Below are positions 41,091-53,480 of a stretch of 64,000 bases of DNA, in pieces. Position numbers and translations under genes: made by a program. Every line of letters starts with the position of its first letter. The first letter of the stretch is position 1. Below the pieces are notes generated by a model that did no database searches, was not told where the DNA came from, and worked only from the letters and a program-made list of their open reading frames with translations. The stretch spans positions 11,346,001-11,410,000 of the forward strand of contig OX597829.1 of NCBI GenBank assembly GCA_951406725.2, written 5' to 3'. This DNA is from Octopus vulgaris. Lineage: Eukaryota.

Positions 41091-41250
41091 TATAGATAAA
41101 TAGATAGATAGATAGATAGATAGATAGATAGATAGATAGATAGATAGATAGATAGATAGATAGATAGATAGATAGATAGATAGATAGATAGATAGATAGA
41201 TAGATAGATAGATAGATAGATAGATTGATAAATAAATAGATAGATAGATA
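41091..41250. repeat. (GATA)n microsatellite
   Basis: Seen directly. Confidence 0.97.
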
Positions 41251-41657
41251 TGTTTCTTTATTAGCCACACAGGGCTGCACACAGATAGAACAAATTACAA
41301 GGTTAAAAAAAAAAGGGAGGGGGGTTTCGATCAAAAGGGATCGTAAAAGGAGAGAAAGAGGACAAAAAAAAGGGGGGGTTAAAAAAAGGGGGGAGAGGAA
41401 AAAATTTATCAATAGGGATCGTTATCACAGAAATGTCAATATGAAGTGTAAAGGGGAGGACAAGTGAGGTTTACCCGTGGAAAGAAAAGCCTACGGAAAA
41501 GACCACGGTAACCTCGGTCAATGAAGTCACATGTTATATTTCTTTTTTTTTTTTTTTTTGCAAATAAGCAACTCTCTGTATTAATTTTTATGGTTCATAG
41601 AATCATAGTCAAGGTGGCTTCGTCATTCATACGTGCCATCCTTGCTACATTCACCCA

Positions 41658-44600
41658 TCATTTTTTAAAACATTCACTAGACAAAACTTGCCTCTCTACT
41701 CTCACTTTCCTCTTCAAGTGATACTTGAAGAAGTTGATGAGAGATTGACCAGAGAGGAAAGTGTTAGTCTCTAATCCTTTCAGGCGCGTCCACCAGATAC
41801 ATTCTTTCGCCATAGCCACAAGTATGATAAAAATAGCTCTTCCTTCCCGTTTGAAGGAAGGAGGCGTGATGATATTAACGATAGACTCGGCTGATAAACC
41901 GACACGTCCCATACGTGACAGCAGTCGTTCGACATAAGTCCACAAGTCGGAAATTGCTGGACACTGCACGATTGCGTGCAGAGCGGTTTCGTCGCTCTGC
42001 CCGCATCTCGGGCAGGTCGGCCCCGTGTTTCTCGAGCCATGCCTATAGAGCTTATCCCGAACGGGTAGCGCTTCTCGGTAGCACCGCCAGGCCAGGGATC
42101 TCTGGAAGTTATCCATAGGTCCCGGGCCGAAAGTCGTTTGAAACAGGCGGGTCAGGTATTCCTCGTCGACGCCCAGGTTTGCCCCGAGATCGTCGTCGTA
42201 CCTCCCCTCCACTAATCCCCTATAGAATGCTTTGGTTGTGTTGAAGTCACTCAAGGTCGACCCGGGACGGCAGAGTTGCTTGAGAGCAACGCGACACTCG
42301 CGGTGCCATTCGCCCTTCCTCGGCCTCTTTTTGATCCACGACTGCAGTTCGGTCATGGAGACGAGTTGCGGGAAAACGTGCCTCACAAACGGCGACCACA
42401 CCTGTTCACCGTCGTCTACATAGAACCAGAGATGTCGCAGTCTCAGCGCGTGTCTGCGCACCATCAACCACGGCATGCCCAGCCCTCCTTTTAACGGGTG
42501 TTGACAGCAAATGGATCGCCTGACCATCGGGACGCATCCTTTCCACAAGAAGCGGAAGAGGATGCGTTCTAGTTTGGTTATGGTAGGGTCGGGACAAGGT
42601 ACGACGGTCAGGCGGTAGTAGATGATGGACGCGATGTACTCGTTCGCCACCTCCGCCCGACCTTTTAGGGACAGTTTCCTCTCGGCCCATTGCTGGGTGA
42701 GAGTGACCACCCTACTCGTTATCTCGTTCCAGTTCTTCTCCATTTGGAGGTCCGGACCGAACCAGACCCCGAGCAACCTAACCGGGCCGTCTGTCCAGCG
42801 TCCCACGACGGAGGTACTGGGGGACGGCATGGGCTTGCTTCTCCAGGTGCCGAGCCGCAAGCCCACTGACTTTTCCCGGTTGATTTTTGCTCCTGTCACC
42901 GCTTCGTAGTCTTTTAGTGTCTCGCCGACCCGCTCGATGTGCGCGTGGCTTGACACTATGACGGTGACGTCGTCCGCGTATGCAGACACGCTCCTCCCGC
43001 ATCCCAGCTCTCGTGGGATGCCCCTCAGCGTCGCCAGTTTCCGCAGTAGTGGCTCAAGAGTCAATACATACAGCAGCGATGAGAGGGGGCACCCCTGACG
43101 AACCGAACGCATGATGTTAAAAGGTCTGGATAGATGACCATTTACGCGAACTACTGAGCGGATGCCGCTGTATAAGGCAGCGATCCAACCGCGGAAAACT
43201 GGACCGAAACCAGCCGCTTTAAGGACAGCCTCCAAGTAGTGATGGTCTACCCTATCGAAGGCTTTTGATTGATCCAAATTGATCAGCGCCCCACCCATGC
43301 CAGGATTCTTAACTACCCTGTTTATGATGTAGCGCATCAGATGGAGGTTGTCATGAATACTTCTACCCGGCACGGCGCATGTTTGTGCCTTGTCGATTAG
43401 TTTATTGATGACAAGCGCCATCCTCTCGGCTAACACCTTGGCCAAAATTTTCAAATCTGCGTTGAGCAGAGTGATGGGCCTGAAATTATCTATGACGTCC
43501 CCCTTGTTTGGGTCTTTCTTAATCAGTGCCACTGCTTCTCGCTTTACAAAAGCAGGAATACTCCCGTTTTGCTGCCAGTTGCAGTAGACAGCTGCCAAGA
43601 CGCCTCCAAACAAGTCTGGCATATGAAAATAAAGTTCGTAGGGCAGACCATCCAAGCCTGGTGACTTGTCTCTCGCGCAGCCTACCATCGCATCCTGTAC
43701 GTCCGCCGCTGTGATAGGCCTTTCACAAGACTTCACCTCTCTTGCTGAGAGTCGTGGCAAGGCATGCAGGTAGGCACTAAAGTCCACTCTGCGTTCTGGC
43801 CCACCACTTGTCCCAAACAGTTGGGTGAAGTGTTGTTGAAAAGCCCCACACATCCTTTTAGGCTCGAGCACTTCGCGCCCCTGTTCATCTATAAGAGACT
43901 TGATGGTGGCTCTGTTGCCTCGTTGCGTCTCCACCACTCGGGCCTCGTGGGCGGCTCCAACTCCTTCGTTCCTCAGAGCACGCATCCTAGCTCTGACAAC
44001 GCATCCTTCGTGTTTGGCGTTGAGGTGTTGGTCGAGGGCCAATCTCGCCGCCAGCACGTTGGACGCGATGCCAGTTCTAAGTGCCATTTCTAAAACCTTA
44101 ACTAATTCTCCCTCTATTCTATTTCGGTCTAATGCTAGGGCTTTACTGTATCTGACTGATTCTGCTTTAATTGCTTTTTTTAGGGCATACCACCATCTGT
44201 TGTTGATGATGGTACCTGTCAAAGCTCTCTTAACTAATGTGCTGATCCGGTCCCTGTAAACCTGTCGTGCTGTAAAAGACGCGTTCAGTTTCCCTGCCTA
44301 TGTGTCTTATCTACGTCTAGCGTACAAGTCACAAACTTGTGATCTGTGTAACTGACTATATGAAATTGTGGACAACCTACACTATTTTTATCTATTGTCC
44401 TACAGAATACTCTATCTAAGTATGATCTGGACGACCCGATGCGGTTACTCCATGTCCACATTGGCACATTCGGGTGGTCCAGTCGGTACCTGTCAGACAG
44501 TTGGAAACGTCTGAGCAGGTCTTTGAGGCATTTGCATCCCTTCTATTGCTATCTCTGCCCACGTAGTCTAGATGCGTGTCCAGGGTGGCATTCCAATCCC

Positions 44601-45017
44601 CACTAAAAGTAAAGGACGAGACGTTCCCATGAAAGACTCTAGACGTCGAAAGAAATCTGGTCGGCCTGTTAAGGACGGAGTATAAACTGCTATCAGTCGA
44701 AAAGCACACTCATTGCTGCCATCGACATCCAAAACGACCAGCCTACCCTCCGGGTCTAGGAAAATTGCTCTTACTTTGAGATCCAGACGCTTTCGGAGAA
44801 GCACCGCGGTGCCACCTCCGCCCATTCTCGGTAGACACGGAGAAAAATAAATGTTGAAATGTGTACCGAAACTGTGCTGGAGTGCCCGCGAGCTGCGGAG
44901 TCTGGTCTCACTGATGGCTATGATATTCAAATTTAGTGACTTGATGTCATTTAACAGGTAGCCTTGTTTCCAAGGCGACCCCAAGCCACGTACATTTATA
45001 CTGCCTATTCTGAGCAT
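41658..45017 (-). pseudogene. Tx1-B ORF2 (APE, RT, C-terminal zinc finger), frameshifted in the APE region
   Basis: SINVRG, ISETR, SYLDRVF, YTDH, FRPITLLN, QGCPLS, AYADD, CPRC..H..C. Confidence 0.95.
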
Positions 45018-52520: not shown

Positions 52521-52749
52521 TTTAAATTTTACTATTTCTTTTTTCTGGCGCAGTGTCAGCGAAATTTACTGGTGTTGTTGATTCACTATTAGATAGTAAG
52601 ATATTTATTTCATTTTTATTGTTGTTCTTGTTGTTGTTGTTGTTTTTGTACACAAAATATGGGCTATAAATAATCAAAATAAACGAGGTGACAACACATC
52701 AGTCGATAGATAGATAGATAGATAGATAGATAGATAGACAGACAGACAT

Positions 52750-53234
52750 ATCCGCGTGAGTTTCATTTTTATCATTTATGTTGGACGTGGTGGTGGTGGT
52801 GGTGGTGGTGGTGGTGGTGGAGGTGGTGGTGGTAGCAGTAGTAGTCTCGTTCTTGTTGTTGTTAGTGCTGGTGGTGGTGACAGGGCGGTTACCGCAAGTG
52901 GTTGCAGCGTTCACTACCACGTCACTCAGGTTTGTTTTTGTCGAATGTGTGTGCGTGCATACGTTCTTTTTTCTCCTAGCGTTTTAAGTCTAGGAAAATG
53001 CTGGTCCATAAAGGAACGCGACCAGCGTTCTACAATAACATTTCTCGACATTTTTTAATGTCGAGAAGAAAAATACACAAATTAAATAGGGTTGAAACTG
53101 CCCCTAGAGGCGAATTCCTCCCTTGGAAAAGCACTCAAACGAAAGTTGGGTGCCTTACACACCTTATTTACAAAAATGTACACAAAATATGGGCTATAAA
53201 TAGTCAAAATAAACGAGGTGACAACACGTCAGTC
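52750..53234 (-). mobile_element. Additional Tx1 5' end fragment (5' UTR plus ORF1 start)
   Basis: Closely matches 47010-47465 and is bounded by (GATA)n/(GACA)n on both sides. Confidence 0.9.
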
Positions 53235-53480
53235 GATAGATAGATAGATAGATAGATAGATAGATAGATAGATAGATAGATAGATAGATAGATAGATAGA
53301 TAGATAGACAGACAGACAGACAGACAGATAGATAGATAGATAGATAGATAGATAGATAGATAGATAGATAGATAGATAGATAGATAGATAGATAGATAGA
53401 TACATAGATGGATAGATAGATGGATGGATCGATGGATGGACGGATGGACGGACGGACGGACAGACAGGACAGACAGACAC
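53235..53480. repeat. (GATA)n/(GACA)n/(GATG)n microsatellite
   Basis: Seen directly. Confidence 0.97.

What the first reader, a model, noticed from the sequence alone, without database searches (positions are those of the whole stretch)
41091..53480. Tx1-clade LINEs apparently targeting (TATC)n microsatellites
Seen: all five termini abut (GATA)n: 3' ends at 41251 and 47853, and 5' ends at 47497, 52704 and 53234. The 3' ends run AATAAA plus a few bases straight into (TCTA)n with no poly(A), and all copies share one orientation. A self-encoded tail would explain the 3' ends but not the outermost 5' tract at 53235. Established: Tx1-clade APE elements include sequence-specific families hitting simple repeats, snRNA genes, tRNA spacers and other transposons. 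Inference: this is a (TATC)n-specific lineage that stacks head-to-tail. I do not know of a description of it, but I cannot search.
Basis: partly seen in the sequence, partly recalled or inferred. Interest (0 to 1): 0.75.

Follow-up and report, generated by a model that had tools for sequence, protein, structure and literature searches.

The report
Octopod LINEs stacked in TATC repeats
Two or three separately evolved jumping-gene copies in what looks like an octopus genome sit nose-to-tail inside one TATC repeat, which suggests a family that homes to this repeat; such homing is known for other repeats, but only this one site could be examined.

Summary
All five termini abut (GATA)n, all on one strand; both 3' ends are AATAAA plus 3-6 nt with no poly(A). 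None of the 45 microsatellites elsewhere in the window is GATA. But there are four tracts and only 2-3 independent insertions: A (near full length), B (deleted, chimeric head C), D (5' 483 nt only). A and B come from separately active lineages (dS 0.45-0.76, dN/dS about 0.2), so local duplication is excluded. They are APE/RT/zf-RVT L1-group LINEs; the best named hit is an octopod. Tx1-clade membership and genome-wide flanks could not be tested. A closer relative E in the window lacks TATC. More distant relatives (40-44%) form head-to-tail arrays with 11-18-nt spacers, no poly(A) and no microsatellite, so stacking is a lineage trait. Best reading: a (TATC)n-preferring family, nicking the GATA strand and primed by read-through (UAUC)n RNA (0.62). 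Kibi, Koshi and crocodilian Tx1 families target other simple repeats; ten searches found no TATC case. New variant of a known kind.

The parts
41092..41250 (.). Tract T1, (GATA)n on plus / (TATC)n on element strand, 3' flank of A
41251..47496 (-). Element A, near-full-length LINE, about 6.25 kb, broken ORFs
41251..41594 (-). A 3' UTR ending in a small hairpin shared with B, AATAAA (41262-41257) and 6 nt; no poly(A)
   Evidence: (hairpin z=-0.2 in A, -3.4 in B)
41595..45017 (-). A ORF2: APE endonuclease, RT, zf-RVT; frameshifts near 44600 and 44290, in-frame stop at 41658
45085..47296 (-). A ORF1: Thr/Asn-rich N-terminus, CCHC zinc knuckle; broken by stops and frameshifts
   Evidence: (zf-CCHC E=8e-4, just under cutoff)
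47497..47853 (.). Tract T2 between B 3' end and A 5' end; contains a (TGTC)5 block
47854..52646 (-). Element B body: ORF1 from the Asn-rich linker on, ORF2 with about 0.6 kb deleted after 48075 (zf-RVT lost), 3' UTR with AATAAA at 47862-47857
49421..51019 (-). B ORF2 N-terminal open frame, with APE catalytic residues aligned to human L1 EN
52647..52704 (-). Head C: 58 nt, 56/58 identical to head D, fused to B with about 0.7 kb of the A-equivalent 5' region missing
52705..52751 (.). Tract T3, (TGTC)3(TATC)8 on element strand
52752..53234 (-). Piece D: 5' UTR plus ORF1 start only (483 nt), 87% identical to A's 5' region
53235..53480 (.). Tract T4, outermost 5' flank: (TATC)18, (TGTC)5, (TATC)19, then decaying through CATC/CGTC/TGTC into CA/CATA repeats

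Best explanation
A lineage of APE-type, L1-group (probably Tx1-clade) LINEs in an octopod inserts preferentially into (TATC)n microsatellites, in one orientation. Steps: (1) the APE domain nicks the (GATA)n strand 3' of GAT/GATA, the register seen at both 3' junctions (inferred from junctions); (2) because the poly(A) signal lies 3-6 nt from the element's end, normal cleavage 10-30 nt downstream (established knowledge) falls inside the flanking repeat, so the RNA ends in a few UAUC units that pair with the nicked GATA strand and prime reverse transcription there, leaving no poly(A) (inferred); (3) each insertion leaves repeat on both sides, so the next copy can enter the same tract, giving head-to-tail stacking (shown as arrangement, inferred as process); (4) slippage later resized the tracts, and deletions or template switching made B, C and D. 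One old tract was entered 2-3 times, most simply A first and then B/D on its 5' side. Whether the nuclease or the RNA pairing dominates site choice is open; I put it at about 55:45 for the nuclease.
For: All termini abut the repeat in one orientation, and 0 of 45 outside microsatellites are AGAT-class. A and B are separately active lineages: ORF2 79.6% DNA identity, dS 0.45-0.76, dN/dS 0.19-0.24 in 4 of 4 segments; they are sisters in the RT tree (100/96). The EN hairpin loop is nearly the same in A and B and different in E, which has no TATC flank, and in every relative where the motif was found. Papers tie this hairpin to target recognition in TRAS1 and R1Bm (PMC1919474, passages). The outer tract T4 decays into a compound repeat like an old host microsatellite. 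Precedent: Kibi (TC)n, Koshi (TTC)n and crocodilian Tx1 (TTCC/TTTC)n (PMC4494074); 3' RNA-target annealing in SART1 and R1Bm (PMC7265360, passages). In relatives, 4 of 4 outer 3' ends keep the first 11-18 nt of the spacer, and the spacer also precedes 5'-truncated copies, as read-through priming predicts.
Against: One locus and 2-3 events. No empty site and no simply 5'-truncated copy was available. No GATA tract free of an element exists in the window, so pre-existence of the tract is not shown. The same (TGTC)n block precedes all three heads, so the tracts are not independent and could be element-borne. The nearest relative with known flanks (E, 60% aa) is not in TATC. In the array-forming relatives, 13 of 16 contigs share one identical EN loop yet carry 7 unrelated spacer types, so the loop need not set the target. 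No target-site duplication can be read inside a repeat.
Confidence: 0.62

Rival explanations
1. The repeat is element-borne: a short (TGTC)k(TATC)m spacer travels with the element at both ends, the first copy landed at an arbitrary site, later copies homed to that spacer by RNA pairing, and the tracts grew by slippage. The family would make GATA microsatellites rather than find them.
For: No element-free GATA tract in 52 kb. A TGTC block sits before 3 of 3 heads and not after A's 3' end. Relatives stack with short non-repeat spacers; on contig CAXXMW010000016.1 a similar 18-mer lies at the outer 5' end, between copies and at the outer 3' end, and one spacer type is shared by arrays with different outer flanks.
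Against: T4 decays over about 250 nt into other host-type repeats. Heads of A and D differ directly at the junction. The TGTC block could equally be a target-site duplication of one tract. D's broken end also meets the repeat.
Confidence: 0.2
2. Local quirk: the family has weak or no preference; one copy landed in this tract by chance and the rest reflects a hot-spot, passive accumulation and local rearrangement (D, C and B being one rearranged insertion).
For: Single locus; C duplicates D's head; relative E is not in TATC; passive accumulation near CA repeats has been proposed for Drosophila Waldo-A/B (PMC3812793, passages).
Against: Even two events give p about 4e-5 under random insertion. 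A and B are not local duplicates. Both 3' junctions are base-precise and in the same repeat register.
Confidence: 0.13
3. (TATC)n is only a self-encoded 3' tail and the 5' contacts are chance, or the cluster is an assembly artefact.
For: Both 3' ends run straight into the repeat; simple-repeat tails are common in other LINE clades (recalled).
Against: T4 and T3 precede heads with no true 3' end upstream. Copies differ by 13-20%, and C differs from D at 2 of 58 sites, unlike a collapsed or duplicated read.
Confidence: 0.05

Closest known systems
Kibi (TC)n and Koshi (TTC)n, teleost Tx1-clade elements (PMC4494074, PMC3812793)
   Same: APE-type LINEs inside a pyrimidine-rich simple repeat
   Different: Target unit TATC; octopod host; relationship to Kibi/Koshi not tested
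Crocodilian Tx1 group preferring (TTCC)n/(TTTC)n (PMC4494074)
   Same: Tetranucleotide microsatellite target
   Different: Different unit; the paper's supplementary junction data could not be read
Tx1-Mar / SINEU-3 tandem insertions (PMC4494074)
   Same: Sequential insertions in tandem around a duplicated target
   Different: Target is a Mariner element; SINEU copies have poly(A) tails
SART1/TRAS1/R1Bm (R1 clade; PMC7265360, PMC1919474) and telomeric Tx1-1_ACar (PMC10088271)
   Same: Oriented insertion into a tandem repeat; EN nick plus 3' RNA-target annealing is the mechanistic model
   Different: Different clade (R1) or telomeric target; SART1 carries poly(A)
Unnamed array-forming relatives on contigs CAXXMW0100000xx
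   Same: Same larger RT clade (99/99); hairpin plus AATAAA end, no poly(A), head-to-tail stacking
   Different: 40-44% identity; 11-18-nt non-repeat spacers; 0 GATA/TATC tracts in the 589,077 nt of all 45 fetched loci

Membership tests
APE-type non-LTR retrotransposon, L1 group | ORF2 with N-terminal APE and RT | tested here: met
   PF03372 and PF00078 above cutoff; best PDB match human L1 ORF2p, E=5e-21, catalytic residues aligned
APE-type non-LTR retrotransposon, L1 group | Separate ORF1 and C-terminal zinc motif in ORF2 | tested here: met
   zf-RVT above cutoff in A and E; zf-CCHC in ORF1 of A, B (just under cutoff) and E (above)
Tx1 clade | RT phylogeny groups with Tx1L, Keno, Kibi, Koshi to the exclusion of L1 | not testable with these tools
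   No named Tx1 reference among 251 protein hits; atlas and NCBIfam uninformative; the tree has no labelled clade members. The Tx1 label rests on recalled architecture and on L1-Tx1 being abundant in Octopus vulgaris (80 families)
Target-specific family (criterion in PMC4494074: over 20% of flanks are one sequence type) | Genome-wide fraction of copies flanked by the target | not testable with these tools
   Only this locus available; the one collection scan returned no relative above 44% over ORF2
Target-specific family | Target on both sides, fixed orientation and register | tested here: met
   5 of 5 named termini, plus D's broken end; 2-3 independent events
Target-specific family | Target-site duplication or empty site | tested here: inconclusive
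   (TGTC)5 shared by T2 and T4 could be a duplication relic; no empty site available
Kibi/Koshi | (TC)n or (TTC)n target | tested here: not met
   Flanks are (TATC)n
Target-specific family | Endonuclease cleaves the target sequence selectively | not testable with these tools
   Needs biochemistry; loop comparison only

The most novel reading that the evidence does not exclude
In this cephalopod LINE lineage the target is programmed by RNA, not fixed by the nuclease. With the poly(A) signal at the element's very end, each transcript carries 10-20 nt of its donor's flank and homes to matching DNA. That builds locus-specific head-to-tail arrays in the relatives. Once a master landed in (TATC)n, the A/B branch became a heritable microsatellite specialist able to enter, and perhaps seed, GATA tracts genome-wide.
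Probability: 0.25. Interest if true: 0.75.

Novelty: new variant of a known kind. Interest (0 to 1): 0.48.

Why it matters
Microsatellite-targeting APE LINEs are known from a handful of repeat units, and how they choose sites is described as not well understood (PMC3812793). A (TATC)n specialist in octopods would add a new target and host group and give a natural comparison set: sister families A and B in TATC, E elsewhere, and array-forming relatives with one EN loop but many spacers. That set makes the question of nuclease versus RNA pairing directly testable, which matters for programmable insertion tools. It would also mean that some cephalopod GATA markers share LINE-derived flanks.

Tried and rejected
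Local tandem duplication of one copy: rejected by dS and dN/dS. RNA-gene target: no Rfam match at gathering score in the window or in 9 of the 45 fetched loci. Out-of-window copies of the same family: closest proteins 70-79% identical and without genomic context; the genome-contig scan gave only 27-44% relatives. Metagenome and viral contigs, and any eukaryote assembly, stayed unchecked, as did the cluster-member names of the protein hits. Read-through of TATC in stored proteins: 0 of 251. Clade naming by ESM Atlas and NCBIfam: uninformative. Octopus GATA marker primers that might match the termini: one search listed nothing usable, and those papers were seen only as a listing. Literature searches found no TATC/GATA-targeting LINE. 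Repbase Reports, Dfam, Kojima and Fujiwara 2004, Fig. 3 and the supplements of PMC4494074, and bioRxiv supplements were not seen and could hold such a family. The 3' hairpin is not significant in A, E or the four relatives folded (z -0.2 to -2.1), only in B. No structure prediction or complex job was run.

Full report
Observation. Reading 40500-54500 and scanning the whole window confirms the junctions within 1 nt. All 9 perfect (GATA)>=3 runs of the 64 kb lie in four tracts, T1 41092-41250, T2 47497-47853, T3 52705-52751 and T4 53235-~53480, each touching an element end, all on the plus strand with the elements on the minus strand. The 3' ends are AATAAA plus 6 nt (A) or 3 nt (B), then TATC, without poly(A). 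Of 55 merged microsatellites, 45 are outside the cluster (mostly AT and AC) and none of these is AGAT-class. Random insertion into a correctly oriented tract has p=0.006 per event. That null assumes the tracts were already there.

Anatomy. A (47496 to 41251) is near full length, with ORF1 (zinc knuckle) and ORF2 (APE, RT, zf-RVT), broken by frameshifts and stops. B (52704 to 47854) has a 58-nt head (C) fused to the middle of ORF1, two ORF2 frameshifts and a deletion of about 0.6 kb removing the zinc motif. D (53234 to 52752) is only a 5' piece of 483 nt. Head C is 56/58 identical to head D. D is 87% identical to A's 5' region, while B's ORF1 core is only 44% identical in protein to A's. So B is a chimera, or D and B are one rearranged insertion: 2-3 events, not five. 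The APE catalytic residues of B align with human L1 EN.

Independence. A and B share 79.6% DNA identity over ORF2, with dS 0.45-0.76 and dN/dS 0.19-0.24 in 4 of 4 segments. They descend from lineages that were each active for a long time, so the cluster is not a local duplication. In an RT tree of 53 rows (P0025 and P0192 left out for low coverage), A and B are sisters (100/96). They sit in a 7-row clade (100/100) with E and an Argonauta hians protein, within a larger clade (99/99) that includes a cuttlefish protein and the array-forming relatives. The named hits are cephalopod, so the host is probably an octopod (inference).

Controls inside the window. A third related element E (about 14980 to 10200, minus strand, 60% aa to A) ends with the same AATAAA motif and no poly(A) but has no TATC on either side. 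Its EN hairpin loop differs from the near-identical loops of A and B. Target preference, if real, is therefore specific to the A/B branch, while the tail-less end is older.

Relatives with context. The single collection scan found 45 loci; 40 are 40-44% relatives on eukaryote-like contigs binned into one bacterial MAG (CAXXMW01; host not determined), and 5 are 27-31% relatives from other MAGs. On 16 contigs there are 65 distinct 3' ends. None has poly(A) or TATC within 30 nt (0 of 105 counted with overlaps). 57 scored as followed by a head; 4 more are followed by another copy on inspection; 4 are outer ends. All 4 outer ends keep the first 11-18 nt of the inter-copy spacer, the spacer also precedes 5'-truncated copies on contigs 8 and 18, and on contig 16 a similar 18-mer is at both outer ends and in the middle. 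13 of 16 contigs share one identical EN loop yet show 7 unrelated spacer types. Stacking is thus a lineage property that needs no microsatellite, and the spacer is not predicted by the loop. Caveat: binning may favour such coding-dense arrays, and unequal crossing-over may contribute to them.

Mechanism. Shown: arrangement, register and divergence. Inferred: target-primed reverse transcription from a nick on the GATA strand. With the poly(A) signal at the element's end, cleavage 10-30 nt downstream (established knowledge, recalled) puts a few UAUC units on the RNA, which can pair with the nicked strand and explain the missing poly(A). Precedents: EN swaps set the target in TRAS1/SART1, and the beta-hairpin matters (PMC1919474, passages); 3' RNA-target annealing improves accuracy in SART1 and R1Bm (PMC7265360, passages). 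The (TGTC)n block before all three heads fits either a long target-site duplication of one tract or an element-borne spacer; this is the main unresolved fork. I give 0.62 to targeting of pre-existing tracts, 0.20 to an element-borne spacer, 0.13 to a local quirk and 0.05 to tail-only or artefact.

Known systems. PMC4494074 (parts 2 and 3 of 5 plus passages; figure and supplements not seen) lists Tx1-clade targets Tx1D, U2, (TC)n, (TTC)n, (TTCC)n/(TTTC)n and transposons, with no TATC or GATA in the main text. PMC3812793 (passages) lists ACAY, AC, TC, TTC and TAA targets. PMC4640811 (passages) adds (TG)n for Togen. PMC10088271 (passages) cites telomeric Tx1-1_ACar. PMC13282606 (part 1 of 3, passages and supplement search) reports 80 L1-Tx1 families in Octopus vulgaris, 13 recently active, with no target analysis. 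PMC8967140 (passages) reports L1-Tx1 expansion in coleoids. PMC12564688 (passages) gave nothing on the motif. Ten searches found no TATC-targeting LINE, but Repbase Reports, Dfam and most subscription papers are outside the library. L1-group membership is met; Tx1-clade membership is probable from recalled architecture but untested.

Verdict. A real feature, and most likely a new target variant of a known kind, resting on one locus. Interest 0.48. The bolder reading, RNA read-through programming of the target across this lineage, has probability about 0.25 and would merit 0.75.

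Noticed in passing
L001-L038, L042, L045 (contigs CAXXMW010000002.1 to CAXXMW010000018.1): Head-to-tail arrays of up to 12 related LINE copies (about 6.4-6.8 kb period) with 11-18-nt spacers, no poly(A), and subfamily-specific heads on near-identical ORF2; eukaryote-like DNA inside a GTDB bacterial MAG. Possibly as interesting as the finding itself.
   Followed up: partly
window 10200-14980, minus strand: Third related LINE (E), 60% aa to A, ends AATAAA plus a few nt with no poly(A) and no TATC; different EN loop; its target was not identified.
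   Followed up: partly
window 47287-47313 and about 53042-53067: Near-perfect inverted repeat (13-bp arms in A, 11-bp in D) overlapping the ORF1 start codon; the array relatives also show 5' UTR inverted repeats (seen; not folded).
   Followed up: no
window 52752-52785: D ends in ORF1 directly at the repeat, with two AATAAA-like hexamers 20-30 nt upstream: premature polyadenylation, internal priming or later deletion.
   Followed up: partly
window 14980-16375, plus strand: RT-bearing fragment abutting E's 5' end that looks like an RTE-clade LINE (motif recalled, not tested), with an internal 21-nt tandem repeat at 16020-16090.
   Followed up: no
window 60616-63154; also 27491-28705 and 36446-38602: Long ORFs; the first has a weak RVT_1 match. 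They look Penelope-like (recalled, not tested). None abuts GATA.
   Followed up: partly
window 19029-22111 and 5549-6250: Pif1 helicase 2B domain (Helitron-like, inference) and a mariner-type Transposase_1 fragment.
   Followed up: partly
window 44-3981: A 3.9-kb degenerate ACC-rich tandem array with long open frames on both strands.
   Followed up: no
L039-L041, L043, L044: Distant LINE ORF2 relatives (27-31%) on short contigs in other bacterial MAGs, probably host contamination.
   Followed up: no
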